Below are positions 5,019 to 55,176 of a stretch of 64,000 bases of DNA, one piece after another; the stretch's first letter is position 1; every line of letters begins with the position of its first letter. This DNA comes from Candidatus Multivoradales bacterium (GTDB taxonomy: Bacteria; Acidobacteriota; Thermoanaerobaculia; Multivoradales; JAHEKO01), in assembly GCA_965248055.1 (NCBI GenBank), contig CBDFIJ010000004.1:2914925-2978924 (forward strand), written 5' to 3'. The position numbers and the translations under genes are program-made. The notes beneath the pieces were generated by a model. That model worked only from the letters and a program-made list of their open reading frames with translations. It did no database searches and was not told where the DNA came from.

Positions 5019-5861
5019 GTGTCGACGCGCCGCCGTTTTCTCCAGGGTTCGCTTGCTACAGCCGTTGCCACAAGTATTGGTGTATTGGCTTACACATTTG
5101 AAGTGGAGCCCGAATGGTTGCAGGTAGTTCGTCGACCGCTACCCATAGAAGGACTTCCGAGCGGGTTAGAAGGGAGATCCCTGGTGCAGCTCAGCGATCT
5201 CCATGTCGGAAAGCGAGTTTCCGACGACTACATACTCAGGACCTTCGAAACCGTTCGTCATTTGAATCCCGACCTAATTGTTTACACCGGGGATTTCACG
5301 AGCTACGAGCCCAGCGGTGTTGAGCACGCGGAATTCATCTACTCGCAGGCTCCGCGCGGGCGCATGGCAACCATTGGCATTCTAGGCAACCATGACTATG
5401 GCCCTAACTGGGCGCATCCGGAAATTGCAGCGCGGTTAGTTGATGTACTTCACGATCATGGGATTCGCATTCTGCGGAATCAGGTGGTGCAGGTCGAAGG
5501 TCTGCAGATTGCCGGGATGGATGATTTGTGGGCTGAAAGATTCGACCCGAAATCGGCGGTTGCCCAATTGCTGCCATCCAGGGCGTCATTGGCGCTGAGC
5601 CACAACCCTGACACTGTCGATCTTGAAGGCTGGGGCGGCTACCGAGGCTGGATCTTGAGCGGTCACACCCACGGTGGACAGTGCAAGGCTCCTTTCCTTC
5701 CCCCTCCGATCTTGCCGGTCAAGAACCGACGGTATACAGCTGGCGAGTTTGACGTGGGCGATGGACGCAGGATTTACATTAGTCGCGGCGTGGGACACTT
5801 AAAGAAGGTACGGTTCAACGTGCGTCCGGAAGTCACACGTTTTGCTTTGCGGAGGGCCTGA
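5019..5861 (+). CDS. TAT-exported calcineurin-like metallophosphoesterase
   Basis: Twin-arginine signal 'RRRFLQGSLATAVA'; GDxxS/GNHDY/GHTHGG metallophosphoesterase motifs. Confidence 0.7.
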   Translation: MSTRRRFLQGSLATAVATSIGVLAYTFEVEPEWLQVVRRPLPIEGLPSGLEGRSLVQLSDLHVGKRVSDDYILRTFETVRHLNPDLIVYTGDFTSYEPSGVEHAEFIYSQAPRGRMATIGILGNHDYGPNWAHPEIAARLVDVLHDHGIRILRNQVVQVEGLQIAGMDDLWAERFDPKSAVAQLLPSRASLALSHNPDTVDLEGWGGYRGWILSGHTHGGQCKAPFLPPPILPVKNRRYTAGEFDVGDGRRIYISRGVGHLKKVRFNVRPEVTRFALRRA

Positions 5862-5868
5862 TCCGGTG

Positions 5869-6552
5869 ATGAAACTAAACGGCGAAGCGTACGCTCGCGA
5901 TGGGTTTCTGGTCACCGATTCATGGGTTAATGAACCTGAGCTGTTCCGTTTTCGCCGTGAAGTGGATCGACTGGCTGCAGATTCTCCAGAGCACGGCGGA
6001 GTGCGAAACGGGCTGGAGAAGTCAGCGATTCTTAGAACCTTCGGAGAGTCCGATCAGATGTTCAGTCTGGCGAGTATGTTTCTGGATCGACCGATCACGC
6101 TGACGCGCCTGACGATCTTCGACAAGACGCCAAGTGCAAACTGGAAAGTCCCTTTTCACCAGGATCTGACGATTGCAGTAAGTGAAAGACGGCAGACCCC
6201 AGGTTTTGGGCCGTGGTCGATCAAGGAGGGAGTCCATCACGTACAACCTCCGGTTGAGATTCTGGAGAACACGATCTCACTGCGAGTCCACTTAGACGAT
6301 GCAACGGACGACAACGGTGCTCTTCGCGTAATCCCTGAAAGCCATAAGCTGGGACGCCTCACCCGCTCCCAGATTGGGAAAAAGCTCTCTACCGGGAAAT
6401 CGGCCTATTGCTCGGTTCGTGCTGGCGCGGCGATGGCCATGAGTCCTCTATTGCTACATGCCTCATCTGCTGCAACCGTTGCAGGTCATCGAAGGGTTTT
6501 GCACTATGAGTACGTCGGATGTGATTTGCCCAATGGACTCGCATGGGCATGA
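5869..6552 (+). CDS. phytanoyl-CoA dioxygenase (PhyH) family Fe(II)/2OG oxygenase
   Basis: 'PFHQDLT' H-x-D motif and downstream 'GALRVIPESHK' typical of PhyH family; start moved to ATG 5869 to avoid 5' overlap. Confidence 0.6.
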   Translation: MKLNGEAYARDGFLVTDSWVNEPELFRFRREVDRLAADSPEHGGVRNGLEKSAILRTFGESDQMFSLASMFLDRPITLTRLTIFDKTPSANWKVPFHQDLTIAVSERRQTPGFGPWSIKEGVHHVQPPVEILENTISLRVHLDDATDDNGALRVIPESHKLGRLTRSQIGKKLSTGKSAYCSVRAGAAMAMSPLLLHASSAATVAGHRRVLHYEYVGCDLPNGLAWA

Positions 6553-7169: not shown

Positions 7170-8441
7170 CTACTCTTCCTCGTCCTGAGCAGGACGGCGA
7201 ATGACTAACACGGTGCGATCATCAGAAAGGGGTTCACCATCGAGGAATTCATCCACTGCGGCGAAGATCTTGTCGACGGTTTCACGGGCGGAGCAGGCTC
7301 GGCACTCTTGAACGGTATCGACCAGCCGATCTCGGCCAAATTCTTCGTCGCTGGTACCGCCCAAGGCTTCCAGGATGCCGTCGGTCACCATCACCACCGT
7401 GCAACCGGGCTTGAGGTTGACGAAGCCTCGTTCGTAGGTGGCGTCTGCCAGTGGTCCCAGTACCGGGCCACCAGCTTGCAACTTCTTGACGCGACCCTCG
7501 GCATCGAGAAACAGCGGTGGTGGATGCCCGGCGTTGACGTAAATGAACAGTCCGGTGTTTTCCAGCTCGCCGTAACACATCGATACGAAGCGACTGGTCA
7601 AGGTGCCGTGGTGGATGATGCTATTCATCCGCTCCACGGTGCGCACGATCTTGAAGTCTCTCGACAGCCCCATGCGCAAACCCATGTGAATGTCGCGCAC
7701 TTGCATCGCCGCGGTGAGCCCGTGGCCAGACGAATCGGCGATGGCGATGCCGACGCTTTTGTCGCTCATCGGGATGAAGTCGTAAAAATCGCCACCGACG
7801 ACGTCCACCGGTTCGCTGCGAGCCGCCAAGTCAAAAACCCCAAATTTGGGCACCCGCCGGGGCAGAATCGAGGTTTGAATACGCCGCGCTTCGGCCAGGA
7901 CGTCGGCGATGCGCTCGCTGCGCAAACGGTCGTTGATCGAGTGGCGCAGAACCGCCAGAGCGTAAACGATGTCGTCGGATGCGACATCCGCGGCGGTATC
8001 AAACGCAATCACGTAGGCCTCGCCGCCGATCTCGATCGCGGCGAATTCAGAAACCCCAAGCTTGCTTTCCAGCTCAGCGTCGGTGCGCGGATCCCCCTGG
8101 GGCATGTAGATCACCCGGTTGCAGATCGCCAGTTCGATCGGCGGGTAGTCCGCGGGAACTTGTAGGCCTCGATTCTTGCCGACCCCGGTCGGGAAAGCGT
8201 CAATCAGCCGGTAGTGGTCGTTCCCCGTCTTACGATAGACCCGGATGCCAGTAATCCCCAATTCGTCGCCCAAGCCTTGGAGTACCTCCTTGGCGACATC
8301 GCGAACTGCCTTTTCCTCATCGACCACGGCGCCCATGCCTTGATCCACTACCTCATCGATCTTGGTCACCAATTGGCGAAAATCTACTTCGCGTCTTTGT
8401 TCAGTCAAATGCTGTACTCCCACTATCAAGCCGCCTCGCAA
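7170..8441 (-). CDS. PP2C-family (SpoIIE/RsbU-like) serine phosphatase with N-terminal GAF domain
   Basis: C-terminal 'DSSGHGLTAAM...' and 'VMVTDGILEA' PPM motifs; N-terminal ~160 aa GAF-like. Confidence 0.7.
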   Translation of the reverse strand: MRGGLIVGVQHLTEQRREVDFRQLVTKIDEVVDQGMGAVVDEEKAVRDVAKEVLQGLGDELGITGIRVYRKTGNDHYRLIDAFPTGVGKNRGLQVPADYPPIELAICNRVIYMPQGDPRTDAELESKLGVSEFAAIEIGGEAYVIAFDTAADVASDDIVYALAVLRHSINDRLRSERIADVLAEARRIQTSILPRRVPKFGVFDLAARSEPVDVVGGDFYDFIPMSDKSVGIAIADSSGHGLTAAMQVRDIHMGLRMGLSRDFKIVRTVERMNSIIHHGTLTSRFVSMCYGELENTGLFIYVNAGHPPPLFLDAEGRVKKLQAGGPVLGPLADATYERGFVNLKPGCTVVMVTDGILEALGGTSDEEFGRDRLVDTVQECRACSARETVDKIFAAVDEFLDGEPLSDDRTVLVIRRPAQDEEE

Positions 8442-8530: not shown

Positions 8531-11500
8531 CTAGGGCTGCGGCGGAGTGAGGCGCAAAGCCGGGTCCCCTGTGAGACTGTAGGTGGCAGCAATATCTGGG
8601 CTCCCGCCACCAGCTATGAAACTCCTTAACCCGCTAAAGACTGCTTCGCCGAGCGTCGCGTTGTCACCGTTCCAGGCTTCGGGAAGCGTGTAAGTTGCCA
8701 GTAGGTGCGACTGGGCGTGGCGCGAAGCTGCAGTTGCACCGAACGCCGCGACCGATCCACCATCGGGATCGAACAATAGGGATTCTGGAAGCGTCTGGAC
8801 GCCCGGCCAGGTGGTGATATTGACTAGGCATCCAAACGCAAAAAGTATTCCCGGTGACTGGGAGTTCGTCAATTCATCCATGTCTGCGGTAGACAGAATT
8901 GATTCTGCTGCCAGCTGTGTGGCGCCTCCGTGGCCGGAATAAACGAGCGCAAGAGTACCATCATTGATCTGGTCGATGAGCTCAGAGTGAATCTCTCCTG
9001 GGTCGCCGGTTCTACCCAGTAGAAGAAGGTTTCGGTTGAAGTCGTTCGGTGCCCGAGCAGATAGATCGAAGGCCGCAGCGTGATAGTCCCCGGCATGATC
9101 TGGGTTGTCGGCAACGAACGCAATATTGTGCTTCCAGTCGGCCGTAGAGGCTTCGAAGACCTTAAGTTTTTCAACATAGTTGGAAACATCTTCTCTAGAG
9201 TTGGCTGGAATCCTACCAATCAAGAATTCGCTTCCGGGGCTCCCGTCTACGTCGCCGAGGACTGAATCCGAGGCGATGACTTGATTGCCGACGTTCATTA
9301 AATTGGCCGGGATCAGATTGCCTCCCCAACCATTGATATCGCGAAAGTCCCAATGCCCGTCGCCCAATAAGACAACCCAACGCGGCGCTTGCCGAGGTCT
9401 CTCCGCCAGCAAGGTCAAGTACTCTTTGATCATCGATGGGTGGTAGTTCCCGTGGCCGATTTGATCAACAATGTCTTGAAAGAACACAGTGCGTGTTCGG
9501 AGCCCTTGAGATTCACGGTAGCTGGCGAGCTCGGCGGCGCCAACTGTGAGAGTTGGGTCGGTGATCAGCAAGTAATCGATTGGTTTTCGACCGAGGCTAT
9601 TGCGTTTGCCGAGAAGGCGCAGACCAGCGACTTGTTTCCATCCGGTGGTATCGACCATCCAGACTTCGGTCTCGGAGGAGAGTTGGTATTTCGCCTGTAC
9701 TGTGCCGTCGAGGCCAGAGGAAAGACCGATGGCCAACGACCGGGGTACTCCATCTTCCCAGGCGTAAGCGGTAACGGCATCGGAGGTCCAGCCCTTTGTC
9801 AACCCCCGGGTTGGCGCGTTCTTCATCTGCAGAAACCCGTGAACTGGTTGCAGCGGCCGTTGATAGGTCAGGTCGAATGAGTCGATGAAGGCGTACCCTT
9901 GTTCAGCTCTAAATTCGATGTTGTTGGTTCCGTCAACCAAGACCCTGGCAGGAACCATCAGCACGGTGTCGAATCTCTCTGATTCATAAGACACCGCGTT
10001 CCCCAGACGATGCCCATTGACTTTGATTTCGAACGAGGTGCCGCCTGTGTTGGCTAAGGGACTGTAAGCCTTCACGGAGAGTCGGGCAGACTTTTCAGCT
10101 ATCACTCCAGGAGTCAAAAAACTCACCGTCGTACGGTCGTCACTGCCACCAGCAATCACGTACTTCCAGTACCAAAAATCATCGGTGGGGGAACTCGCCA
10201 ACCACAGAGTCGCAAAGCTGTCTTTCTCAAATCGCTGATGGTGAGTGTAGGTATCATTTTCTGCAGAAAGAGGTGAATTGCTGGAATCGCGTTCCATGAC
10301 AACGCCAGACTTCCACTCTGCGACCAAGGTCCAGGAGTCGAGGTAGGGTGGCAAAGAATCGCGGACCAAGAAACGAACCGTGCCTTTGGAAGCATCGATG
10401 GGGATGTCGTTTCCGTTGAGTGTTAGCCGAAACTTTCCATTTCGCACCTTTCTCCCGACCGCTTCGCGGGACTCTCCAAGCGCGGTCGCCAGTTCGTCGA
10501 GAGTTAGCTCGTAGGGCCCGGGTCCGGGAACCACGACTCCAATTGGTCTCAGTTGAGGTGTGGGCCTAGGCGGGCGCTCTCGAAGTGGTTGCCTATCCCC
10601 GCCGATTAGCTCGGGCGGTAAGGCGGCCCTCGTTGCGCGCTTAGAGCCAATTTTTTGGCGCGGTGCTCGAAGCCCCCCAGCACGCCCAGGTACTGGCCGA
10701 ACTTGAGTACGCCGAACTGGCTGGTTCAGATCCAATCTACCCAGTTCGCGAATCAGACCATGGGCGTCGACTTCCACAACTCTATATTGGGTGCTTCGGT
10801 GTTTACTTTGATCAAACACCGTGTAGCGGCCACCTTCCGATCCTTTGGCGTTGACGATTCCGGGATGAACGGGGACCCATTTTCCGCCCTGCTGCGCTTG
10901 CACCTTGAACCCCAGACTGCCGATCTCACCAACGGTTTCCCAACTGATCCATTTACCCTCCCGGCTGTCAATTGCGGTGAAATTCACTACCGATGCATAG
11001 TTGGGAACAATATTGAGATCGCAGGCGATAGAGGACTGTGCGGAGGTCACACTCGGGGCGACCAGTGGGAGAGTCGGATAGAAAACGGGTGTTACCGAGA
11101 GGGAGGCGTCGGTTGAATTGACTTGATAATCAAAAGTCATGGTGTCTGTTTCGCTGCTGTCAATGCGACCTGGCACACCGGAGAGGCCGGGCTTCCAACT
11201 CTCGTCGGTGTTGGCGAGGGTTTGATCACCGGCGCTGCCGCCACCATAGGCGACGCCGGTGAATATGCCTGCTACGCTGGCGTCATCGCCGACTTCAAGT
11301 TGCCAGAACTGCCCCGCCCCCACTCCGGTGTTGTTGTAGGTCAACGAGCAAGAGGCTGTTTGTCCCAACACAGAGATCAGGCTGGGTGTACAGGTACACG
11401 AAAGCTGAATATCCGGTACTGAGATGTTGGATTCCACCAATGAACGCTTGCATTTAGAACCATTGAAATCGTCAATGTCTTGTAAGACGTCAGTTCCGTC

Positions 11501-12049
11501 GCAGACGATGGTGTTTTTTGCTTGGCCCCAGGAGGTGATGGTGTCGATATTAACCGTTCCATCTCCATTGCTATCCGAGCAGGGTAGGGTCACTGCAGTT
11601 GGAATTACATAGGTCTCGGATGTTGAAGACGTGACGTTGCCACAAAGGTCACCATCACTGTTTGGATAGTTGGCCGCTGGCCGCAAGTACTCTCGCATGC
11701 AACCGGTCGCCAAAGCGTCGTCGGGGTCAGAAATGGGTATAAATAGACCGATGTCATATCGGATGGAGGCATTAGTTTCTATTTCAGCGCCGAGGCTTAC
11801 TGCGGTGAACGTATCCCCTGGCCCAAAGCACCCATCCAGCAAGGTTGTGGCTTGATAGAAGGCTGCACTGGTGTCGTTGGCAGTGCAATTGAGATCTGGC
11901 GGTGGGCAATTGCAGTCCGGGTCTGCAAAATCCACCAGGGTGTCGCTGTCATTATCAATATTGTCCTGACACGCGAATTCGTCGGCAAGAAGTCGTGGCC
12001 CGACGACAATTACACTCAGCAACGAAACGAACAAGAATATCGATCTCAT
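8531..12049 (-). CDS. 1172-aa secreted protein with C-terminal peptidase C25 (gingipain-like) domain
   Basis: Signal peptide; N-terminal Cys/Asp-rich 'DNDSDTLVDFADPDC' Ca-binding (TSP3-like) repeats; C-terminal 330 aa with 'YLLITD...ELASYRESQG', 'LVYSGHGG' (His) and 'FAFGCL' (Cys) = C25 catalytic dyad. Confidence 0.65.
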   Translation of the reverse strand: MRSIFLFVSLLSVIVVGPRLLADEFACQDNIDNDSDTLVDFADPDCNCPPPDLNCTANDTSAAFYQATTLLDGCFGPGDTFTAVSLGAEIETNASIRYDIGLFIPISDPDDALATGCMREYLRPAANYPNSDGDLCGNVTSSTSETYVIPTAVTLPCSDSNGDGTVNIDTITSWGQAKNTIVCDGTDVLQDIDDFNGSKCKRSLVESNISVPDIQLSCTCTPSLISVLGQTASCSLTYNNTGVGAGQFWQLEVGDDASVAGIFTGVAYGGGSAGDQTLANTDESWKPGLSGVPGRIDSSETDTMTFDYQVNSTDASLSVTPVFYPTLPLVAPSVTSAQSSIACDLNIVPNYASVVNFTAIDSREGKWISWETVGEIGSLGFKVQAQQGGKWVPVHPGIVNAKGSEGGRYTVFDQSKHRSTQYRVVEVDAHGLIRELGRLDLNQPVRRTQVRPVPGRAGGLRAPRQKIGSKRATRAALPPELIGGDRQPLRERPPRPTPQLRPIGVVVPGPGPYELTLDELATALGESREAVGRKVRNGKFRLTLNGNDIPIDASKGTVRFLVRDSLPPYLDSWTLVAEWKSGVVMERDSSNSPLSAENDTYTHHQRFEKDSFATLWLASSPTDDFWYWKYVIAGGSDDRTTVSFLTPGVIAEKSARLSVKAYSPLANTGGTSFEIKVNGHRLGNAVSYESERFDTVLMVPARVLVDGTNNIEFRAEQGYAFIDSFDLTYQRPLQPVHGFLQMKNAPTRGLTKGWTSDAVTAYAWEDGVPRSLAIGLSSGLDGTVQAKYQLSSETEVWMVDTTGWKQVAGLRLLGKRNSLGRKPIDYLLITDPTLTVGAAELASYRESQGLRTRTVFFQDIVDQIGHGNYHPSMIKEYLTLLAERPRQAPRWVVLLGDGHWDFRDINGWGGNLIPANLMNVGNQVIASDSVLGDVDGSPGSEFLIGRIPANSREDVSNYVEKLKVFEASTADWKHNIAFVADNPDHAGDYHAAAFDLSARAPNDFNRNLLLLGRTGDPGEIHSELIDQINDGTLALVYSGHGGATQLAAESILSTADMDELTNSQSPGILFAFGCLVNITTWPGVQTLPESLLFDPDGGSVAAFGATAASRHAQSHLLATYTLPEAWNGDNATLGEAVFSGLRSFIAGGGSPDIAATYSLTGDPALRLTPPQP

Positions 12050-12143
12050 GACTCCCTCCCTTAGTTCCCAAAAAGAAACGAAACAGTAGCGCCAATTACG
12101 CGGTGAACTGAGGCGTCAACCCTATATCAGCTAGGAGGGGCTG

Positions 12144-13133
12144 TCAAGGAAATGTATGCGTCCATGACATTTGGCACTGATCGGTATGTTCAGCTACGTA
12201 TTGTAGCGGTGGTCTTTGTCGGTGGCTCCAGTGGGGCCTTTCGGCGTTAAACCAGAGCATCCAGTCGAAGAGTTTTTGGTTGAAAGCTTGGAGGTCAGTG
12301 AAGAGCAAGTCTTCGTTGTAGTCAACGAAGACTTGCTCTTGGATGGTTCGATTGAATCTCTCGGCTTGGGCGTTCATCTTCGGGCACCTGGGGTAGGTGT
12401 ACCAGCGTTTGATTCCAGCCTCAGCAGCTTTCTTGTCGAAGGCTCCTTGAAACTCACTACCGTTGTCTGAGAGCACGGTAGTAACAGCAAATGGCAAGAC
12501 ATCAAGGCTCAGGTCCAGAAAGCGCGCTGCCGTGCTCGAGGTGTGGGAGTTGGTGGCTATTGCCAGACTCATGCTGCTGGCGGCATCGGTCAGAGTGATC
12601 AAGTACCGGCGTTGGCCATCACAGAATCGCTCGATGGTATCTACTGCCACCCACTGACCAGGCGATCAATCCTTTGAGGCACCAAGCGCATCTTGTCGGG
12701 AGCATCGCCAATGATGCGGCCGATGGTGCTCACCGAGGGGCAGGTAATTCCCCTTACTTCACACCAGGGTTTCAACAGCGGATAGATCTTGTCCTTGCCA
12801 AGATTGGGCTCTTTGACCCGCAATCGACCGATCTCAGAGACCACCTCAGCTGGCCACTTGCGCCGTCTTCTTTTCTTCGGAGCTGTTGATTGAGGGTATT
12901 AGAGAGCTTAGCTCTCCTTTGCACCTACCAAGACGAGACTTCCAGCGGTACAGAGTCCTCCGGCTGACCGAAAATGCATCGATCGCTGCATCGATCCCAT
13001 GCTCCTGCCAGAATCTCAATGCTCGGATACGTTTCTCAGCGCTATCTTGGGTCATGACCCAAGATACCCCTAGATGACGAAGATGTCCCAGGCCTTGGAA
13101 ACGCCCTCTGATCAACCTCATGCTCATCGACAC
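12144..13133 (-). mobile_element. degraded IS481-family transposase (3 ORF fragments: HTH + rve integrase core)
   Basis: N-terminal HTH fragment (12846-13133), middle fragment (12641-12844) and DDE/rve core (12144-12650, 'LSDNGSEF...AERFNRT') in different frames = frameshifted pseudogene. Confidence 0.6.
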
Positions 13134-23853: not shown

Positions 23854-25944
23854 TTACCAGTCGGTGTCGATAAAAATGAAACGGGTCTCTACTCGGCGCA
23901 GGATGGAGAACACCACTTTTTCCGGCTTGTCCTGCTCGATGGATTCCATCGTCTGTTCGAATTCCTTGACGTTGTGGATCGGGGCTGAGTCGATTGCCAG
24001 TAACAAGTCACCACCACGCAGGTGACCGAGGCCAGCCCAGCCGCCCTCTTCGACATTGGTAACCAAGACTCCGGTGGTGTCGTTGGCCCACCGACGGTGC
24101 GCCTTGTCGAAAAAGGTCAGGTCACGCACCGAGAAATCAAAGACTCGGTTGGTGGCACGCTGTACCTCTCCTTCACTCTCCGGCGTCTCCAGCAGGGTGG
24201 TCTGGACCCGTTGCTGCTCGCCATCGCGCAGGATCTCTAGCTCGGCTGGATTGCCAGGTTCCAGGCTGCGCACTCGGCGGTTGTAGGAGTCGATATCGCT
24301 GGAGGTCCGCGGCTCGACCGGAGCGTCGTTGATGGAGAGCAAGATGTCGCCAATGCGTAGGTCAATGTCGCCCGCGGCCGGGTGGTCATAGACCCGAGCG
24401 ATACGGTAGCCATGCGCTGGTCCCAGCCCCAACGACTCGGCCAAGTCGGGCAGGATCGGTTGGACTTGCACCGGCAACCAAGCGTCCGGCAACTCAGCCG
24501 GACGACTGCGGCGACTCTCGGCCAAGTCGAGGGCCGTGACGTAGCGCGCGGCAGCTCTCTCAAAGGTAAGAATTGGGCCTTCTGGGTCTTCATCGTCTTG
24601 ATGCTCGGCGAGCCAGATTTTCAAATCTTCAACCGAATTCAGAGCGCCGCCGTTGATGCTCAAGATCAGATCTTCGTACTGTAATGCGGGCGTGGCCTCG
24701 GCCGCTGGACCGGTGGCGTCGAGGCTGGTGACCAAGACGCCCTTGTCGTCGGTTAGGCGCCGAGCCCTGGCCATCCGTGGGGTCAGATCTTCCACCGTTA
24801 GACCCCAGCCGCGAATCACCAAGCGTTCACCCCGATCGCGCTGGTAGCGCTCGCTGGTCACCTCTAGATCCAAGATTTTGCTGCCCCGCTCAATGTGTAA
24901 CGAAACTTGGTCGCCAATCGGACGAATCGACAATCCTCGGCGAAACTCCGGCATGTCCTCCGCGTGGCGTACCATGACGGGGTTTCCATCGACCGCCACG
25001 ATCAGGTCGCCAGGACGAATGCCAGCCCGATCGGCCGGGGAATCGTCAATCACCGAATTCACCAACACGCCGCGATCATGAGTGGTGGTGCGGATGGGCT
25101 TGAAGCGGAGCCCCAAGAAACTGCGCCGTACCTCGCCAAAATCGATCAGCTGCTCAACCACATCCTTAACTACGTCACTGGGGCTGGCAAAGGCCATGTC
25201 GCCACCGAAGCCGTTGCCCCGGGTATTAACGCCGATGATCTCGCCCCGCAGATTGACCAGAGGTCCGCCGGAGTTACCGGGAGAAATGGGCGCATCGTGC
25301 TGGATCCAGCGGTAGTAAGAAGCCGAAGGCTGGTCCCGGCCGAGGGAAGTTTCATAATCTGCGTCATCGTCGAACAGACTGACGAACACGCGCTTGGCAT
25401 TGTTGACCACGCCCACCGAGAGCGAGTGGGTCAGTCCCCAAGGGGCGCCGATGGCGATCACCGTGTCGCCGGGTTCCAAGATCGAAGAATCACCGAAGGT
25501 GGCGACCGGGATCGGGTCTCCTTCGAGCGCTGCCGCGTCGTATTGCAGAACCGCGATATCAGAGAGTGGGTCTTCGCCGACCAATTGAGCGTCGATCTCT
25601 CGCTTGTCGGCAAAGACCACCCGGAAACGGGTCGAATTTTCGGTGACGTGGGCGTTGGTGACGATATGGCCCTCAGCCGAGACCATGGTGCCGCTGCCGC
25701 CCGAACGCTGCAGGTTGGCGCGTCCGTTGACGTGGGTTTCTCGCACGCTCAAGATACTGACCACCGAGGGTAGGGCGTGCTGGCGAACTGTGAGAATGCC
25801 AGCCGGTCGAGTGGTCTCGACTGGATCTTGCCCCTCAATAACGGTTACTGACGCCACAATCGAAATCAAGCCAACCAACAGCACTGGCGCGAAAGGGCGT
25901 CTTATGGATCGGGATAGTGTGGATCTCAACAATTGATTTGGCAC
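23854..25944 (-). CDS. HtrA/DegP-family serine protease with four PDZ domains
   Basis: 'HIVTNAHV' (His), 'DIAVL' (Asp), 'GNSGGPLVN' (Ser); four successive PDZ-like segments in 696 aa. Confidence 0.8.
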   Translation of the reverse strand: MPNQLLRSTLSRSIRRPFAPVLLVGLISIVASVTVIEGQDPVETTRPAGILTVRQHALPSVVSILSVRETHVNGRANLQRSGGSGTMVSAEGHIVTNAHVTENSTRFRVVFADKREIDAQLVGEDPLSDIAVLQYDAAALEGDPIPVATFGDSSILEPGDTVIAIGAPWGLTHSLSVGVVNNAKRVFVSLFDDDADYETSLGRDQPSASYYRWIQHDAPISPGNSGGPLVNLRGEIIGVNTRGNGFGGDMAFASPSDVVKDVVEQLIDFGEVRRSFLGLRFKPIRTTTHDRGVLVNSVIDDSPADRAGIRPGDLIVAVDGNPVMVRHAEDMPEFRRGLSIRPIGDQVSLHIERGSKILDLEVTSERYQRDRGERLVIRGWGLTVEDLTPRMARARRLTDDKGVLVTSLDATGPAAEATPALQYEDLILSINGGALNSVEDLKIWLAEHQDDEDPEGPILTFERAAARYVTALDLAESRRSRPAELPDAWLPVQVQPILPDLAESLGLGPAHGYRIARVYDHPAAGDIDLRIGDILLSINDAPVEPRTSSDIDSYNRRVRSLEPGNPAELEILRDGEQQRVQTTLLETPESEGEVQRATNRVFDFSVRDLTFFDKAHRRWANDTTGVLVTNVEEGGWAGLGHLRGGDLLLAIDSAPIHNVKEFEQTMESIEQDKPEKVVFSILRRVETRFIFIDTDW

Positions 25945-47764: not shown

Positions 47765-49720
47765 TCAGGCGGTGGCTGGAGTCGGATTGGTCCCCGGCGG
47801 AAACTCGGGCTCGGAGTCAGCATCGGCGGTGGTTTCGGGTTCATCGCGCACCGAAGGCTCGGGTTCTACGGTGGGTTTGGGAGGTGCTGGCGGCCCCAGA
47901 TCCATGCCGGTCATTTCTGAGATCAGAGCGTAGATCATGGCGCCGTCCAAGGACTCGTGCTCGAGCAATTCTTCGGCGAGGCGGTCCAGAATCTCGCGGC
48001 GTTCGGTCAGAATGCGCGTCGCCTCCGCGTGGCCTTTTTCCACCAGACGCTCGATTTCTCGATCAACCCGTCCTGCGGTTCCCTCACTGATTTCCGCGCG
48101 GTCGCTAAAGTCCCGTCCAAGAAACACTGGTTCGCTGGAACTGCCTAGGGCAAGAGGGCCCATCTCCGACATTCCCCACTCGCAGACCATGCGGCGAGCC
48201 ATCTCAGTAGCCCGTTCGATGTCGTTGCCGGCTCCGGTTGTAATGTCGTCTTGGGTCAATTCTTCGGCCACGCGTCCACCCATAAGGATGGCGATCTGCG
48301 CTTCTACGTAGCCTTTCTTATGCGAGTAACGATCCTCCGTCGGCAACTGCATCGTTAGGCCGAGCGCACGTCCTCGCGGAATGATAGTGACCTTATGCAG
48401 CGGGTCACTCCCGGGGAGAAATGCCGCGACCAAGGCATGCCCGGCCTCATGGACCGCGGTAACTTTCTTTTCCTCGTCGGTCATGATCAGGGTCTTGCGC
48501 TCGGCTCCCATCAACACCTTGTCCTTGGCGAACTCGAAATCTGCCATGGTGACTGCTTTGCGTTCGAAGCGCGCGGCAAGCAGAGCCGCCTCATTGACCA
48601 AGTTGGCCAAGTCGGCTCCCGAGAAGCCTGGAGTTCCTCGAGCGATGACCGCTAACTCGACGTCTTCGTCCATCGGGATCTCTCGGGTGTGGACTTTCAG
48701 AATCCCGGTGCGACCGTTGATGTCGGGACGGTCCACCACGATGCGGCGGTCGAATCGACCTGGGCGCAGCAAGGCTGGATCTAGCACGTCAGGTCGATTG
48801 GTGGCGGCGATCAAGATCACTCCTTCGGAGGTCTCGAAGCCATCCATTTCTACCAAAAGTTGGTTCAAGGTCTGCTCTCGTTCATCGTGACCGCCGCCGA
48901 GTCCAGCGCCGCGCTGGCGTCCGACCGCGTCGATCTCGTCAATGAAAACGATGCACGGCGCGTTGCGCTTGCCTTGCTCGAAGAGGTCGCGTACACGGCT
49001 GGCGCCGACACCGACAAACATCTCGACAAAATCGGAGCCAGAAATTGAGAAAAACGGCACATCCGCTTCGCCAGAGATCGCCCGGGCCAGGAGCGTCTTA
49101 CCGGTTCCTGGGGGTCCCATGAGCAGCACCCCCTTGGGGATCTTGCCGCCCAGTCGCTGAAATTTCTGCGGTTCTTTGAGGAAGTCGACGATTTCCGAGA
49201 GCTCGTCTTTTGCCTCTTCAATCCCAGCCACGTCTTCGAAGGTGACCTTGTTGCCGGTTGAGGCATTTATCAACTTGGCTTTGCTCTTGCCGAAAGACAG
49301 GGCCTTGTTGCCGCCGCTTTGCATCTGGCGCATAAAGAAGATCCACAGGCCGACGATCAATAGAATCGGAGCATAGAGAAACAGGAATTGCAGCAATACA
49401 TTTTGCTTTTCTGGCTCGACTACGATTTCGGCGTTGGCTGCCCGCAGTTTGTCCACTAGGCCGTCGTAGTTGGGGACCGAACGGGAGATGAACGCTTCAC
49501 CGCCGGCGTAGGGCAGATTGACATCGGAGCCAAATTCACCGGTGATTTCGTCTCCGCGCAGAGTCACCGAAGCGATCTGTCCGTCTTCCAGTTGGGAAAG
49601 AAACTCGCTAAAGGTAAGTTCGTGTTCGCCACCCTTACCGGCTTGCAGCGCTTGCCAGCCCAAAAAGACCACTAGGAATAGGGCCATCCAGAGAAGTAGA
49701 GTCTTGGTCGTAGAATTCAA
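47765..49720 (-). CDS. ftsH: ATP-dependent zinc metalloprotease FtsH
   Basis: TM-AAA 'GPPGTGKT', SRH, zinc 'HEAGHAL'. Confidence 0.9.
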
Positions 49721-51202: not shown

Positions 51203-51279
51203 TGGTGGCGGTGACGGGACTCGAACCCATGACCTAGCGGTTATGAGCCGCTCGCTCTAACCAGCTGAGCTACACCGCC
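51203..51279 (-). tRNA. tRNA with CAU anticodon (elongator Met or tRNA-Ile2 lysidine substrate)
   Basis: Cloverleaf GGCGGTG-TA-GCTC..GAGC-AGCGG-CTCATAA-CCGCT-...-CACCGCC-A-CCA; G1:C72 and non-GGG/CCC anticodon stem exclude initiator. Confidence 0.8.
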
Positions 51280-51485
51280 AAAGGTGTTCCCCAACCGAGG
51301 GGCAATTGCCTCGGTCGCTGGGTTTCCGGTTTCGGTCGCCTCGATCTGGACCAACTCGAGATCAGTCAACCGGGTGGGCGACAACCAACCGAACGGCGAA
51401 TGATAGCCCGAGTCCGGTTGGTTGCCCAGTCCATAAGACGCGACCCCGCAGTGTCTAACTCCCATGGGACCCTCGATTGCGCGGC

Positions 51486-52094
51486 CTAGGCCTGCGCGGC
51501 CTGATAGCGATCGGCGACCGCTTCCCAGTCCACTAGATCAAAAAAGGCTTGGACGTAGTCCGGGCGACGATTTTGGTAGTTGAGGTAGTAAGCGTGCTCC
51601 CAAACATCGAGTCCCAAGATCGGAGTCGCTCCGGACATCAATGGGCTATCTTGATTGGCAGTCGCCAGGACCTTGAGGGTGCCATCATCGACCACCAGCC
51701 AGCCCCATCCGGAGCCGAATTGTCCGCCTGCAGCCGCGGCAAACTGAGCTTTGAAGTCGTCAAACGATCCGAAGGCGGAGTTGATGACAGCGGCCAGATC
51801 TCCTGATGGCGTGCCATCGCCAGCTGGGCTCATAATGCTCCAAAACAGCGAGTGATTGGCATGGCCTCCACCGTGGTTGCGCACCGCAGTACGGATGTCA
51901 TCTGGAACCGCATGAATCCGGCCCAGCAAGTCCTCCACCGACAAAGCTTCGAGGTCGCTGTGACCCTCGAGGGCCTTGTTGAGGTTGGCGACATAGGCTG
52001 CGTGGTGCTTGCCGTGATGGATCTCCATGGTGCGGGCATCGATCGAAGGTTCTAACGCGTCGTGCGCGTAGGGTAAATCGGGAAGCTGATGCAT
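51486..52094 (-). CDS. sodA: Fe/Mn superoxide dismutase
   Basis: '[10 protein letters not shown]', 'DVWEHAYY'; ATG 52094 with AAGGAG RBS (ORF-track N-extension not supported). Confidence 0.9.
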
Positions 52095-52258
52095 GGTCGG
52101 ATCTCCTTGAGGATAACAGTCAAAAGTGGGGAGAGAGATTGTCGCGCGAAAGAACTCCGAGGTCAAAGTCTGGGTGACAGCGGTTCGACGAACGACAGGG
52201 TTTGAACTCGTTGACTTCCCGTTCCAGCGTTCGTAGACTCCGCTTTCGCTCTCGGGCG

Positions 52259-52333
52259 GGGAGGTTAGCTCAGTGGGAGAGCATCTGCCTTACACGCAGA
52301 GGGTCGGGGGTTCAAGCCCCCCACCTCCCACCA
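52259..52333 (+). tRNA. tRNA-Val (anticodon TAC)
   Basis: GGGAGGT..anticodon loop CTTACAC..ACCTCCC-A-CCA. Confidence 0.85.
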
Positions 52334-52360
52334 AGTACAAGATGCACGAGAGAGAATTTT

Positions 52361-52439
52361 GGGGGCGTAGTTCAGTTTTGGTTAGAACGCCGGCCTGTCA
52401 AGCCGGAGGTCGCGGGTTCAAGTCCCGTCGCTCCCGCCA
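52361..52439 (+). tRNA. tRNA-Asp (anticodon GTC)
   Basis: GGGGGCG..anticodon loop CTGTCAA..CGCTCCC-G-CCA. Confidence 0.85.
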
Positions 52440-53460: not shown

Positions 53461-55176
53461 TCATCCTCGGATGTTCTGATCGCTTTGCTGGCCATCGCTG
53501 TCATCACCGGTATCTTCCAGAGCGGTTCGGGTCGCCAACAGCTCCGAGGCTTGGGGAAACCGCGCCAACGCCTCTTGCACTTGGGGGTCAGACAGGGCCA
53601 GTTCGCGCGAGCGGGCACCCAGGCCAAACGCGGCGCCCAATATTTCAGCACGCAGCCGGCGCAAGATGTTGGCTTGAATCTGAGCGTCGCTGTAGGCTTG
53701 ATTCAGTTCGTCCGGGCTGACGATCTCCTGCTCGACCAACCAGTCGCCAAACTGTCCGACCAAGTCGCTTGGCTCCTTCCACTCCTGGTCGCTCAACGGG
53801 GCGCGGTTTTGGTACTCAACGCCGAAGTTGAAGAAGGTGTTGTGGACAAACAAGTAGCCGATGAACTCGGGAATCTCAGCCGGTTCGACGATGTAGTCGG
53901 GGGTGATGCCACCGCCGCCGAGGACGGTGCGCCCTAAGTCGGTGGAATAGGAGGCTTGGTTGTCGTTGGCGGCGTAGGAGCCATCGGCACGGGTGGTGTA
54001 GTCGAACCACGACGAGTAGTCGCGCTGAATCAACCGCCCGGATGGGGTGTAGTACTTGGCGGTGGTGAGCGCGACACCGTTGCCGTGGCTGATGTTGTAG
54101 ACCGTTTGCACCAGCCCCTTGCCCCAGGTGGCTTCCCCGACGATCAAACCGACATCGTGGTCTTGAACCGCGCCGGAGACGATTTCCGAGGCTGAGGCGG
54201 TCGCCGGGCCGACCAAGATCACCAGCGGTAGATCGGCTGGCACCGCAGAGGAGTCGGCGACATAAGTCTGCCCAGATCCAGGTGTGCGGCCACGGGTTTC
54301 GACAATCTTGGAAATGGCGGGGACAAAGATCTCGCTGACCTCCACCGCTTGATCCAACAGTCCACCGCCGTTGTTGCGCAGGTCCAGCACCAAGTTCTCC
54401 ATCCCCTCACCCTTGAGGGAATCGATCGCTTCCAACATCTCTTGGGTTGAGGAGTGGGAAAAATCGGTGAGCATGATGTAGCCGGTCTTGGCGTCCAGCA
54501 TGTAGGAATAGGCCACCGTGTTCTGTGGGATTTCGTCTCGGGTTACCGCCAGATCAAAGGACTCGTCCAAGCCGCGTCGCTCGATCGTGATGTTGACGGT
54601 GGTTCCCTGAGGCCCCTTGAGCTGTCGTACCGCCTCATTCAAATTCATCCCCGAGGTGGTCTCTCCTTCGATCGCCGAGATCACGTCGCCGGCACGAATG
54701 CCCGCCTTCCAAGCGGGCGTGCCCTCGACCGGCGTCACCACAGTCAGTTGCGAATTGCGCATACCAATCAAAATGCCGAGCCCAGAGAAACTCGCCTGTT
54801 GGCGCTGCCGCAGATCGTCGTACATCTCTTTGGGCAAGAAATTGGTGTGCGGGTCTAGGGTACGCAGCATGCCGTTGATTGAAGCCTCGACCAACTCTTG
54901 ATAGCTGACTTCGGCGCCGTAGGCGTCGTGGGTACGGTGCAGAACTTTGGCGTAGCGAATCAGGGCTTGCTTGAGATCGTCAGGAAGGGTGACTTGTCTC
55001 TGACTCAAGACCACGCTGCCGCCAAAGACAGCCAGGAAAACAGTGATCGCAAACCAACGCCAAGAGCTTCGCATTCGGCGCAGCTTATCAGCGCTGGAGA
55101 GGGGGTCGAGGGGGGGACGAAATATTGACGGCATAGAAGATCCAGGGCTGACTTGTGCAGGCGTTCCTGTCCGCAA
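53461..55176 (-). CDS. ctpA: carboxyl-terminal processing peptidase (S41, Ctp) with PDZ domain
   Basis: PDZ 'GLGILIGMRNSQLTVVTPVEGTPAWKAGIRAGDVI', S41 'LVLDLRNNGGGLL' Ser box and Lys region. Confidence 0.8.
   Translation of the reverse strand: MRTGTPAQVSPGSSMPSIFRPPLDPLSSADKLRRMRSSWRWFAITVFLAVFGGSVVLSQRQVTLPDDLKQALIRYAKVLHRTHDAYGAEVSYQELVEASINGMLRTLDPHTNFLPKEMYDDLRQRQQASFSGLGILIGMRNSQLTVVTPVEGTPAWKAGIRAGDVISAIEGETTSGMNLNEAVRQLKGPQGTTVNITIERRGLDESFDLAVTRDEIPQNTVAYSYMLDAKTGYIMLTDFSHSSTQEMLEAIDSLKGEGMENLVLDLRNNGGGLLDQAVEVSEIFVPAISKIVETRGRTPGSGQTYVADSSAVPADLPLVILVGPATASASEIVSGAVQDHDVGLIVGEATWGKGLVQTVYNISHGNGVALTTAKYYTPSGRLIQRDYSSWFDYTTRADGSYAANDNQASYSTDLGRTVLGGGGITPDYIVEPAEIPEFIGYLFVHNTFFNFGVEYQNRAPLSDQEWKEPSDLVGQFGDWLVEQEIVSPDELNQAYSDAQIQANILRRLRAEILGAAFGLGARSRELALSDPQVQEALARFPQASELLATRTALEDTGDDSDGQQSDQNIRG

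What the first reader, a model, noticed from the sequence alone, without database searches (positions are those of the whole stretch)
8531..12049. Giant secreted protein with Ca-binding N-terminal repeats and a C-terminal gingipain-like (C25) catalytic domain, next to a PP2C/GAF phosphatase and an IS remnant
In the last ~330 aa the C25 His (LVYSGHGG) and Cys (FAFGCL) are both present. This is the reverse of the usual order, where a propeptide and catalytic domain come first and adhesin domains follow. The N-terminus has D-x-D-x-D TSP3-like repeats and many Cys. The middle has a Pro/Arg-rich linker. A degraded IS481 sits directly upstream of its start and a GAF-PP2C phosphatase directly downstream, which suggests a horizontally acquired, possibly regulated, surface protease or adhesin.
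Basis: partly seen in the sequence, partly recalled or inferred. Interest (0 to 1): 0.55.

Follow-up and report, generated by a model that had tools for sequence, protein, structure and literature searches.

The report
Secreted PorU-like C25 cysteine peptidase
This gene encodes a real, probably active, exported cysteine protease of the gingipain/PorU family; its protease-at-the-end layout looked odd but is the normal design of a large, widespread group that nobody has studied experimentally.

Summary

The "reversed" order is not unusual. Residues ~503-1167 match the N-terminal domains plus catalytic domain of the T9SS sortase PorU, but the protein stops right after the catalytic domain and has no T9SS C-terminal domain. 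It scores far below the PorU family cut-off. In 133 of the 149 best relatives the C25 domain is also C-terminal, across Acidobacteriota, Myxococcota, Competibacteraceae, Verrucomicrobia and others.

The N-terminus is a conserved Cys-rich domain with 7 invariant Cys and one DxDxDG-like loop, followed by an Ig-like domain. It is not made of TSP3 repeats. Next come a fibronectin-like "WET" domain and a basic disordered linker, both conserved in the clade.

The IS481 pseudogene and the PP2C phosphatase neighbour are real. A GAF domain is not detected, and the PP2C adjacency is absent from 134 related loci.

The best reading is an exported PorU-related processing endopeptidase. A side lead: WET domains also end other proteins, with conserved "ATPR-hydrophobic-K" tails, sometimes next to C25 genes. 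Interest is moderate.

The parts
8531..12049 (-). Whole gene: 1172-aa exported multidomain C25 peptidase (stop codon included)
   Evidence: ORF list. GGGAGGGAG lies 4 nt upstream of the ATG. Relatives that are full length and share the same architecture align from aa 54 to 1169.
11984..12049 (-). Probable Sec signal peptide, aa 1-22 (MRSIFLFVSLLSVIVVGPRLLA|DE)
   Evidence: Read from the sequence: a basic n-region, a 14-residue hydrophobic core and an LLA site. No signal-peptide predictor was available, so this is an inference.
11888..11980 (-). Acidic Cys motif, aa 24-54 (CQDNIDNDSDTLVDFADPDCNC...). This insert is absent from most relatives.
   Evidence: NCBIfam acid_disulf_rpt at 23.1 bits, below the cut-off of 41. 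It is missing from most relatives that share the full architecture. It is present in P0053 and P0062.
11435..11887 (-). Conserved Cys-rich beta-rich domain, aa 55-205. Invariant C55, C74, C117, C136, C157, C183, C200. Motifs CTAND and RYDIG, plus a DxDxDG-like loop D159-D169.
   Evidence: Alignments A3 and A4 of 13 and 23 relatives. The second AlphaFold model gives pLDDT 65-87 over most strands. No Pfam hit at E<=10.
11030..11434 (-). Ig-like beta-sandwich, aa ~206-340
   Evidence: All-beta prediction with pLDDT 60-87. Conserved in the relatives that share the full architecture. Relatives carry DUF11, CARDB or SdrD-type Ig domains at this position.
10724..11017 (-). 'WET' fibronectin-like beta-sandwich domain, aa 345-442 (F-TA...W-ET..E.G..GF...YR.VE.D..G)
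   Evidence: pLDDT 84-94. A local HMM finds it in 146 of 149 relatives. There is no Pfam or NCBIfam model for it. The same domain ends unrelated proteins.
10550..10723 (-). Disordered Pro/Arg-rich basic linker, aa 443-500
   Evidence: pLDDT below 50 in both models. The linker is a conserved feature of the clade: 146 linkers, median 59 aa, Arg 11.6% and Lys 6.6% against 4.5% and 1.8% overall.
9575..10549 (-). PorU-like pre-catalytic domains, aa 501-825. A small alpha/beta domain (503-580) followed by beta-sandwich domains, one of them a CBM6/35/36-like jelly roll at about aa 640-735.
8549..9574 (-). Peptidase_C25 catalytic domain, aa 826-1167. The protein ends 5 residues later.
8930..8932 (-). 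Codon of the catalytic His1040 (in ALVYSGHGG)
   Evidence: Aligns with RgpB His211. His in 149 of 150 relatives. Coordinates checked.
8828..8830 (-). Codon of the catalytic Cys1074 (in FAFGCLV)
   Evidence: Aligns with RgpB Cys244. Cys in 149 of 150 relatives. Coordinates checked.
12144..13133 (-). Neighbour, not part of the gene: IS481-family transposase pseudogene in three frames (13133-12846 HTH; 12844-12644 middle; 12650-12144 rve core)
   Evidence: NCBIfam IS481 E 7e-32 for the C-terminal fragment, covering model positions 139-283 of 284. The HTH fragment matches model positions 1-38. Pfam rve and HTH_23 hits. The middle frame was translated. No terminal inverted repeats were found.
7170..8441 (-). 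Neighbour, not shown to be linked: SpoIIE/PP2C-type phosphatase of 423 aa with an unassigned N-terminal 226 aa
   Evidence: Pfam SpoIIE E 2e-40 over aa 227-416. Relatives in the PDB are Rv1364c, RssB and SiaA. No GAF hit. The adjacency is not conserved.

Best explanation
The gene encodes a Sec-exported, catalytically competent clan-CD cysteine peptidase of family C25. It belongs to a large uncharacterised clade related to PorU.

The layout is: signal peptide; a variable N-terminal 'passenger' (here a disulfide-rich domain with one probable Ca-binding loop, plus an Ig-like domain); a fibronectin-like 'WET' domain; a ~58-aa basic disordered linker; then a core equivalent to the first ~740 residues of the T9SS sortase PorU. 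That core comprises a small alpha/beta domain, beta-sandwich and CBM-like domains, and the C25 catalytic domain with His1040/Cys1074. The protein ends immediately after the catalytic domain.

Shown: the domain identities, the intact dyad, the PorU-like core, the absence of a T9SS C-terminal domain, and how common this architecture is.

Inferred mechanism: after export, the N-terminal domains position the protein on a surface or polymer. The C25 core then performs site-specific (limited) proteolysis of secreted or surface proteins, as PorU does, rather than bulk digestion. The basic linker just upstream of the core is the likely site of latency and/or autoprocessing that separates passenger from enzyme. 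N-terminal self-inhibitory segments are usual in clan CD.

The PP2C gene and the IS481 pseudogene are neighbours and not demonstrated partners.
For: Catalytic domain:
- Pfam C25 at 201 bits over the full-length profile.
- The dyad aligns with RgpB His211/Cys244 and is conserved in 149 of 150 relatives, together with D981, D984 and E1049.

PorU relationship:
- The family profile hits PorU 6ZA2 at E 5.6e-40, against 3e-21 for RgpB.
- The NCBIfam PorU model covers model positions 132-736, that is pre-catalytic plus catalytic domains.
- Foldseek aligns about 800 columns with PorU.
- Clade members score 156-229 bits on that model, while true PorUs score 1243-1386 bits over the full length.

Architecture is typical:
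- 9639 homologues at E<=1e-3.
- In 133 of the 149 best, C25 ends within 30 aa of the C-terminus.
- The same dichotomy appears in genomes: terminal C25 in phyla not known for T9SS, and ~365 extra aa in Bacteroidota, Fibrobacterota, Zixibacteria and KSB1.

Linker: conserved in length and basic composition in 146 relatives, with a recurring motif, and disordered in both models.

Link between the WET domain and the C25 core (fusion/fission):
- In Anaerolineae loci L021, L027 and L032 the C25 protein lacks WET and the adjacent gene ends in a WET domain.
- 5 of 27 WET-selected metagenome loci of 8 kb or more carry an adjacent same-strand C25 gene, or a fusion. C25 homologues make up about 5e-6 of all cluster representatives.

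PorU's role as a site-specific C-terminal peptidase/transpeptidase: PMC10202324. Clan CD self-inhibition by N-terminal segments: PMC4357240.
Against: - No biochemical data exist for any member of the clade.
- The S1 pocket could not be assigned. The sequence alignment places RgpB Asp163 opposite a variable position, and no model coordinates were available for superposition. Specificity is therefore unknown.
- The window protein departs from the clade consensus at aa 992-994: AAF instead of D-S-D/E.
- No WET-terminated candidate substrate, and none of the conserved neighbours seen in relatives, is present in the 64-kb window.
- Most WET-selected loci (22 of 27) have no C25 gene within 10 kb.
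- Autoprocessing in the linker is pure inference.
- The source organism was not identified, so absence of a T9SS in its genome is not shown.
Confidence: 0.5

Rival explanations
1. It is a nutritional, gingipain-like extracellular endopeptidase. It is secreted to degrade environmental proteins in bulk. The N-terminal Cys-rich, Ig-like and CBM-like domains tether it to particles or to the cell surface. The linker is only a flexible spacer.
Against: By sequence the core is closer to the processing enzyme PorU than to the gingipains, and it shares PorU's pre-catalytic domains. There is no gingipain prodomain (PF08126), no post-catalytic Ig domain and no haemagglutinin/adhesin region. The fusion/fission and adjacency with WET-terminated proteins, and the conserved basic linker, are not explained by a simple spacer model.
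Confidence: 0.3
2. It is a cis-fused 'cargo plus sortase'. The WET domain is a sorting or recognition domain for PorU-like C25 enzymes that work without a T9SS. The enzyme cleaves after the WET domain, in cis within its own linker and in trans at the 'ATPR' tail of other WET proteins. It may also transfer the product to a surface acceptor by transpeptidation.
For: The WET domain is predominantly C-terminal in other proteins: 88 of 106 copies have 40 aa or fewer after it. Those tails are strikingly conserved...HGPVSATPR[LW]IYG[IL]GK. WET-terminated genes lie next to terminal-type C25 genes in L021, L027, L032, L073, L093, L125 and L134, and are fused with one in L085. PorU is a precedent for a C25 transpeptidase acting on a C-terminal beta-sandwich domain (PMC10202324).
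Against: The association is partial: 5 of 27 loci of 8 kb or more. The window protein has no ATPR-hydrophobic-K tail after its WET domain. No WET protein other than the target is present in the window. Arg specificity is unproven. The tails are too short to be transmembrane anchors, and no acceptor is known.
Confidence: 0.13
3. It is an orthologue or paralogue of the T9SS sortase PorU and works in a type IX secretion attachment complex.
For: The best characterised sequence and structure match over several domains is PorU.
Against: The NF033707 score is 156 bits against a cut-off of 420, and only model positions 132-736 are covered. True PorUs score 1243-1386 bits end to end. The protein ends 5 aa after the catalytic domain, so the post-catalytic domains and the T9SS C-terminal domain needed for export and PorV binding are absent. 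Closest relatives are MAGs labelled Thermoanaerobaculaceae, Acidobacteriota, Myxococcota and Competibacter. From general knowledge these lineages are not known to have a T9SS; this was not tested here. No T9SS gene was noticed among the window ORFs that were scanned.
Confidence: 0.02
4. It is a non-catalytic adhesin whose C25 domain is a degenerate binding module.
For: There is a local departure from the clade consensus at aa 992-994. The N-terminal region is long and adhesin-like.
Against: His1040, Cys1074, Gly1039, D981, D984, E1049 and P1082-G1083 all match the near-invariant positions of the clade. The profile match is full length with no truncation. The domain is modelled with high confidence.
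Confidence: 0.05

Closest known systems
[quoted passage not shown]
   Same: Family C25 with a Cys/His dyad. It has the same multi-domain core: pre-catalytic domains followed by the catalytic domain, with no gingipain-type prodomain. It is the best profile match (E 5.6e-40) and aligns over about 800 columns by Foldseek. The ADNxD motif before the first S1-forming helix is shared.
   Different: The target stops after the catalytic domain. It lacks PorU's ~365-aa post-catalytic domains and the T9SS C-terminal domain. It carries ~500 extra N-terminal residues (Cys-rich, Ig-like, WET, basic linker) that PorU lacks. It scores 156 bits against a cut-off of 420. Its relatives lie in phyla not known for T9SS (the T9SS point is from general knowledge). 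Its substrate and any transpeptidase activity are unknown.
Gingipains RgpB and Kgp of P. gingivalis (MEROPS C25; PDB 1CVR, 4IEF, 4RBM)
   Different: There is no N-terminal Propeptide_C25 prodomain, no Ig-like Peptidase_C25_C domain, no haemagglutinin/adhesin domains and no C-terminal domain. Accessory domains are N-terminal. Sequence identity is 16-20%. The equivalent of the Arg-binding Asp163 could not be assigned.
Environmental 'gingipain-like' exported C25 peptidases reported from sediment metagenomes and archaea (Bathyarchaeota, Thermoprofundales)
   Same: They are signal-peptide-bearing C25 homologues outside Bacteroidota, known only from sequence (PMC6752024).
   Different: Those reports treat them as generic Arg-specific endopeptidases. 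They do not describe the PorU-like core, the terminal catalytic domain, the WET domain or the linker. I did not test whether those proteins belong to this clade.
Database label 'C25 family cysteine peptidase' (for example Candidatus Competibacter HRW64504.1)
   Same: The closest named relatives carry this label. They are 27% identical over aa 332-1167 and have the same WET-linker-core layout ending in C25.
   Different: They have different N-terminal passengers, for example a Gly-rich AgmC_N-like region. Many sit beside a radical-SAM/SPASM cassette that is absent from the window.

Membership tests
Peptidase family C25 (clan CD), Pfam PF01364 | Profile match above the curated gathering score over the whole domain | tested here: met
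   201.4 bits against a cut-off of 23, E 3.5e-59, aa 826-1167, profile 1-374/374.
Peptidase family C25 (clan CD), Pfam PF01364 | Catalytic His/Cys dyad at the positions of RgpB His211/Cys244 | tested here: met
   phmmer and profile alignments place His1040 opposite His211 and Cys1074 opposite Cys244. Both are conserved in 149 of 150 relatives.
Peptidase family C25 (clan CD), Pfam PF01364 | Caspase-haemoglobinase alpha/beta/alpha fold of the gingipain type | tested here: met
Peptidase family C25 (clan CD), Pfam PF01364 | Peptidase activity and P1 specificity | not testable with these tools
   This needs enzyme assays. The equivalent of the S1 residue RgpB Asp163 is ambiguous from sequence alone.
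T9SS sortase PorU (NCBIfam NF033707) | Score above the curated equivalog cut-off over the full model | tested here: not met
   156.4 bits against a cut-off of 420, covering only model positions 132-736 of 1095. Genuine PorUs P0009 and P0010 score 1243 and 1386 bits over positions 2-1095.
T9SS sortase PorU (NCBIfam NF033707) | C-terminal T9SS sorting domain and post-catalytic domains | tested here: not met
   The protein ends 5 aa after the C25 domain. There is no Por_Secre_tail hit. PorU-type relatives have 359-373 aa after the C25 domain.
T9SS sortase PorU (NCBIfam NF033707) | Pre-catalytic domains plus catalytic domain arranged as in PorU | tested here: met
T9SS sortase PorU (NCBIfam NF033707) | Genomic co-occurrence with T9SS components (PorV, Sov/SprA, PorK-N, PorZ, PorQ) | not tested
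   Only 64 kb of a 3.35-Mb genome is available. Nothing T9SS-like was seen among the window ORFs that were scanned.
Gingipains (RgpA, RgpB, Kgp) | N-terminal Propeptide_C25 prodomain (PF08126) | tested here: not met
   No PF08126 hit at E<=1 on the whole protein or at E<=10 on aa 503-825.
Gingipains (RgpA, RgpB, Kgp) | Ig-like domain and C-terminal domain after the catalytic domain | tested here: not met
   Nothing follows the catalytic domain.
Thrombospondin type 3 repeats (Pfam PF02412) | Tandem Ca-binding DxDxDGxxDxxD repeats detected by the profile | tested here: not met
   No hit on aa 1-343 at E<=10. The same scan does detect TSP_3 in the control protein P0207 (E 6.3e-07). Only one DxDxDG-like loop is present, at aa 159-170.
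Acidic double-disulfide repeat (NCBIfam NF033662) | Profile score above cut-off, normally in several copies | tested here: inconclusive
   One copy at aa 24-47 scores 23.1 bits against a cut-off of 41. The relative P0053 scores 38.3 bits.
GAF-PP2C phosphatase (the neighbouring gene) | GAF domain N-terminal to the PP2C domain | tested here: not met
   SpoIIE/PP2C is found at aa 227-416 (E 2e-40). No Pfam hit on aa 1-226 at E<=10. A divergent GAF-like fold was not excluded by structure prediction.
IS481 family insertion sequence (the neighbouring element) | Intact DDE transposase above the NCBIfam cut-off, with terminal inverted repeats | tested here: not met
Only fragments are present. The C-terminal part scores 111 bits against a cut-off of 224 (model positions 139-283). 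The HTH fragment covers model positions 1-38. The coding sequence is spread over three frames. No terminal inverted repeats were found.

The most novel reading that the evidence does not exclude
PorU-like C25 peptidases with a terminal catalytic domain may form a T9SS-independent protein-sorting or maturation system in many phyla other than Bacteroidota. In this reading the ~100-aa 'WET' beta-sandwich, with its conserved C-terminal 'ATPR + short hydrophobic stretch + Lys/Arg' tail, is the recognition signal, by analogy with the T9SS C-terminal domain and PorU. The window protein would then be a natural fusion of cargo (Cys-rich adhesin plus WET domain) and its own processing enzyme, separated by autocleavage in the basic linker.
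Probability: 0.15. Interest if true: 0.75.

Novelty: new variant of a known kind. Interest (0 to 1): 0.4.

Why it matters
C25 peptidases are understood almost entirely through the Porphyromonas gingipains and PorU. This gene shows that the PorU-type multidomain core also exists without any T9SS sorting domain. It defines a large clade: over 1400 cluster representatives at E<=1e-30, and 133 of the top 149 have the same layout. The clade occurs in Acidobacteriota, Myxococcota, Competibacteraceae, Verrucomicrobia, Chloroflexota and others. Sediment surveys count such genes as generic 'gingipain-like' protein degraders. If they are instead site-specific processing enzymes or sortases, those ecological inferences would need revision, and a new surface-protein maturation route would be open to test. 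The gene itself is an ordinary member of that clade, and the IS and PP2C neighbourhood adds little.

Tried and rejected
1. Identifying the source organism failed. The exact protein is on a 3,345,972-bp NCBI/ENA contig, but every window protein looked up is either a nameless singleton cluster or absent from the collection. Gene look-ups returned nothing. The genome is not among the GTDB representatives scanned. Rfam found only three tRNAs.

2. TSP3 and Ca-repeat reading of the N-terminus: rejected. There is no Pfam hit even at E<=10, although the control protein P0207 is detected.

3. GAF domain in the phosphatase: rejected at the HMM level.

4. PP2C as a conserved partner: rejected. There is no homologue in 134 related loci. 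No convincing terminator or promoter was found between the genes either way.

5. Conserved neighbours of relatives (radical SAM/SPASM enzyme, HprK/ScmC-like protein, S24/S26-like peptidase): searched for in the window and absent.

6. PorU orthology: rejected on the curated cut-off and the missing C-terminal domain.

7. Gingipain prodomain in aa 503-825: not detected.

8. Assigning S1 specificity from sequence: inconclusive. Model coordinates could not be inspected.

9. The word-index homology search recovered only 14-30 relatives and gave a false impression of an orphan protein. The exhaustive HMMER search corrected this.

10. The AFDB Foldseek library was unavailable. The PorU structure paper (PNAS 2021) is not held.

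Full report
**1. The observation**

The window holds a single uninterrupted ORF at 8531..12049 on the minus strand. It is 1172 aa long and starts at an ATG preceded by GGGAGGGAG. The exact protein exists in public data on a 3,345,972-bp contig but is a nameless singleton at 90% identity.

Pfam gives one hit. Peptidase_C25 covers aa 826-1167, spans the whole profile (1-374/374), and scores E 3.5e-59 and 201 bits against a cut-off of 23.

A direct phmmer search of the PDB finds gingipain R. In that alignment the His of LVYSGHGG (His1040) sits opposite RgpB His211, and the Cys of FAFGCL (Cys1074) sits opposite Cys244 (positions counted by hand). A family profile repeats this result. RgpB's dyad and its S1 residue Asp163 are described in PMC4357240. 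Among 150 aligned relatives, His1040 and Cys1074 are each conserved in 149. D981, D984, G1039, E1049 and P1082-G1083 are also strongly conserved, and the window protein has all of them.

**2. Other parts of the observation**

- Fourteen of the 15 cysteines lie in the first 343 residues.
- The Pro/Arg-rich linker is real. It covers aa 443-500, with 17 Arg and 11 Pro in aa 401-500, and is disordered in both structure models.
- The upstream IS481 element is a pseudogene. Its HTH, middle and DDE-core pieces sit in three different frames between 13133 and 12144, on the same strand, ending 95 bp before the start codon. No terminal inverted repeats were found.
- The downstream gene (7170-8441, same strand, 89-bp gap) is a SpoIIE/PP2C phosphatase.

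Two details fail.
- The N-terminus contains only three DxDxD-like strings (a fourth lies in the C25 domain). It gives no TSP_3 or any other Pfam hit at E<=10, although the same scan detects TSP_3 in a control protein.
- The first 226 residues of the phosphatase give no GAF or other Pfam hit at E<=10.

**3. Anatomy**

Two AlphaFold2 models were made. The first used an alignment without N-terminal relatives. The second used 23 relatives that share the whole architecture. Together with the alignments they give this layout:

| Residues | Feature |
|---|---|
| 1-22 | Signal peptide (read from the sequence; inference) |
| 24-54 | Acidic Cys motif. Weak 'acidic double-disulfide repeat' hit, 23 bits against a cut-off of 41. 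Absent from most relatives. |
| 55-205 | Conserved beta-rich Cys-rich domain. Seven invariant Cys (55, 74, 117, 136, 157, 183, 200). Motifs CTAND and RYDIG. One DxDxDG-like loop (D159-S-N-G-D-G-T-V-N-I-D169), a plausible single Ca2+ site. |
| ~206-340 | Ig-like sandwich |
| 345-442 | Confidently modelled fibronectin-like sandwich (pLDDT 84-94), called 'WET' here after its W-E-T motif |
| 443-500 | Basic disordered linker |

The protein ends five residues after the C25 domain.

**4. What the core is**

Over the whole core, the best relative is PorU, the T9SS C-terminal signal peptidase/sortase.
- The family profile hits PorU (PDB 6ZA2) at E 5.6e-40, against 3e-21 for RgpB. A weak extra alignment (2.3 bits, i-Evalue 280) places the start of the mid-module opposite PorU residues 8-60.
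- Foldseek aligns about 800 columns with 6ZA2.
- The NCBIfam PorU model matches aa 592-1171 to model positions 132-736.

That score is 156 bits against a curated cut-off of 420. Genuine PorUs recovered in the same searches score 1243-1386 bits over positions 2-1095, and one of them (P0010) also gives a T9SS sorting-domain hit. Other members of the target's clade score 199-229 bits and also stop near model position 733.

The target therefore works with a PorU-type core but is not a PorU. It lacks the post-catalytic domains and the C-terminal domain that PorU needs for export and for docking on PorV (PMC11285876 and PMC10202324). It also lacks the gingipain prodomain, the Ig domain and the adhesin domains.

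**5. Is the architecture unusual?**

No. The word-index homology search found only 14-30 relatives. An exhaustive HMMER scan of 1.84 billion cluster representatives found 9639 at E<=1e-3 and 1474 at E<=1e-30.

Of the best 149 (26-32% identity):
- 133 have the C25 domain ending within 30 aa of the C-terminus;
- 104 share homology starting at about aa 300-400, that is from the WET domain onward;
- 22 share it from about aa 20-55, which includes the Cys-rich domain.

In species-representative genomes the same split appears.
- Terminal C25 occurs in Acidobacteriota, Thermoanaerobaculia, Myxococcota, Competibacter/Contendobacter, Chromatiaceae, Verrucomicrobia, Omnitrophota and Anaerolineae.
- About 365 extra C-terminal residues (the PorU type) occur in Saprospiraceae and other Bacteroidota, Rhodothermales, Fibrobacterota, Zixibacteria and KSB1.

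Named relatives are labelled 'C25 family cysteine peptidase' or 'hypothetical protein'. The N-terminal passengers vary widely: DUF11, CARDB, SdrD-B, FG-GAP and AgmC_N-like Gly-rich regions.

The 'reversed order' is the standard design of a large uncharacterised clade. The pre-catalytic-then-catalytic order of PorU is preserved.

**6. Conserved linker**

In 146 relatives, the segment between the WET domain and the core is 41-137 aa long (median 59). It is enriched in Arg (11.6% against 4.5%), Lys (6.6% against 1.8%), Ala and Pro, and depleted in Asp. A motif of the type [GY][FY]x[RK]x[AP]Hx[ILM]Sxx[KR]xxR[IL] recurs in it. The window protein carries a degenerate version, GLRAPRQKIGSKRATRAAL.

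A conserved basic, disordered segment directly upstream of a clan-CD core is a natural candidate for a latency or autoprocessing region. N-terminal self-inhibition is common in the clan (PMC4357240). This is inference only.

**7. Context**

The PP2C adjacency is not conserved. No homologue occurs in any of the 134 related loci fetched. No clear terminator or promoter separates the two genes.

Evidence for horizontal acquisition is modest. GC3 of the gene is 0.58, against 0.68 +/- 0.05 for 15 other genes in the window. The IS fragment (0.61) and two genes at 5019-6552 are similarly low.

In 6-7 relatives, the C25 gene sits next to three other genes: a radical-SAM/SPASM enzyme, an HprK/ScmC-like protein and a small S24/S26-type peptidase. 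None of these has a counterpart in the 64-kb window.

**8. A lead from the WET domain**

A local HMM of the domain finds it in the target clade, and also at the extreme C-terminus of other proteins.
- P0207 is a TSP3/FN3 protein with WET at residues 972-1081 of 1087.
- In the Anaerolineae loci L021, L027 and L032, the C25 protein itself lacks WET and the adjacent same-strand gene ends in one.

A metagenome scan with this 'cargo-type' domain found more than 460 relatives. In the best 80 loci:
- 88 of 106 copies have 40 aa or fewer after the domain;
- the tails are strikingly uniform...HGPVSATPR[LW]IYG[IL]GK;
- WET-terminated genes often occur in tandem;
- 5 of 27 loci of 8 kb or more contain an adjacent same-strand C25 gene of the terminal type, or a fusion (L073, L085, L091, L093, L134; plus the short locus L125).

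C25 homologues are about 5e-6 of all cluster representatives. The domain has no Pfam or NCBIfam model and is not detected as a T9SS C-terminal domain.

This fusion/fission and adjacency pattern suggests a functional link between WET domains and PorU-like C25 cores, by analogy with the T9SS C-terminal domain and PorU. The association is partial, however. The window protein has no ATPR tail, and no other WET protein lies in the window.

**9. Best explanation and rivals**

Most likely (confidence about 0.5 for the functional part, above 0.9 for the identity): an exported, active, PorU-related C25 endopeptidase that carries out limited proteolysis of secreted or surface proteins. Its N-terminal domains position it, and its basic linker serves as the latency or autoprocessing site.

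The main rival (about 0.3) is a bulk nutritional protease of the kind inferred for the abundant exported C25 genes in sediments (PMC6752024). This is supported by the very gingipain-like catalytic domain.

The cargo-plus-sortase reading is the most novel one not excluded (about 0.13-0.15). PorU orthology and a non-catalytic adhesin are unlikely.

P1 specificity could not be assigned. The sequence alignment places RgpB Asp163 opposite a variable position, and the window protein departs from the clade consensus D-S-D/E at aa 992-994.

**10. Verdict**

The finding is real and correctly identified as a C-terminal C25 peptidase. It is a typical member of a large, widespread and experimentally untouched PorU-related clade. 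The TSP3, GAF and regulatory-neighbour elements of the interpretation are not supported.

Novelty: a new variant of a known kind. Interest: moderate (0.4). That interest comes mainly from the clade-level questions, namely T9SS-independent PorU-like enzymes and the WET tail signal, and not from this locus.

Noticed in passing
L055-L134, e.g. L103:7510-9810(+), L072:284-1120(+), L091:9185-10330(+), L134:787-6931(+); also L021:11173-15819(+), L027:4598-8236(+), L032:1-2682(+): A ~100-aa fibronectin-like 'WET' domain with no Pfam or NCBIfam model ends many otherwise unrelated large proteins. It is followed by a highly conserved tail...HGPVSATPR[LW]IYG[IL]GK-COOH. A few copies have a full transmembrane helix plus a basic tail instead (L125, L127). 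The genes often occur in tandem arrays and are sometimes directly adjacent to terminal-type C25 peptidase genes. This looks like an undescribed C-terminal sorting or processing signal.
   Followed up: partly
L004:5136-7777(+), L001:13119-15824(-), and the equivalent genes in L002, L005, L006, L010, L033: In 6-7 relatives from Acidobacteriota, Thermoanaerobaculia, Competibacteraceae, other Gammaproteobacteria and Omnitrophota, the C25 gene sits beside a conserved trio: a radical-SAM/SPASM enzyme, an HprK-related/ScmC-like protein and a small S24/S26 signal-peptidase-like protein. The arrangement resembles a peptide-maturation cassette. It is absent from the window.
   Followed up: partly
window 10550-10723 (aa 443-500) and the equivalent segment of P0053-P0201: The basic linker of the clade contains a recurring short motif of the type [GY][FY]x[RK]x[AP]Hx[ILM]Sxx[KR]xxR[IL]. 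Examples are GFEAHAKAPSPRFADRAAGR and FSRTAHPMSAAKKARIEAIK. The window protein has a degenerate copy, GLRAPRQKIGSKRATRAAL. Its function is unknown; it could be an inhibitory or cleavage segment.
   Followed up: partly
window 12050-12143: The 95-bp gap between the end of the IS481 pseudogene and the start codon of the C25 gene contains two TTGAC(A/G) hexamers, each followed 15 nt later by TATAGG or TAATTG. The consensus promoter scan (16-18 nt spacer) did not call them. Whether the IS remnant supplies or displaced the promoter is open.
   Followed up: no
window 5019-6552 and 8531-13133: GC3 is low (0.54-0.61) for the metallophosphoesterase-like gene, the PhyH-like gene, the C25 gene and the IS fragment. 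The PP2C gene between them (0.70) and 12 housekeeping genes (0.67-0.76) are higher. Low-GC3 genes are therefore interspersed with typical ones and do not form one clean island.
   Followed up: partly
whole window: Every window protein looked up is either a nameless singleton at 90% identity on one 3.35-Mb contig or not in the collection at all. The genome is absent from the GTDB species representatives scanned. The source is therefore a poorly sampled lineage whose taxonomy could not be established here.
   Followed up: partly
P0016 aa 262-690 (Candidatus Competibacter relative): The Gly-rich N-terminal passenger of the Competibacter C25 proteins matches the N-terminal domain model of the Myxococcus adventurous-gliding protein AgmC (118 bits, below the cut-off of 275). 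This shows how varied the passengers fused to the same WET-linker-C25 core are.
   Followed up: no
window 23854-25944(-), 47765-49720(-), 53461-55176(-), 51206-52436: The rest of the window is ordinary housekeeping. It includes a DegP/HtrA protease with extra PDZ region, FtsH, an S41 C-terminal processing peptidase, RecD2, PyrG, SerA, TilS and three tRNA genes. Nothing resembling T9SS components was seen among the ORFs scanned.
   Followed up: no
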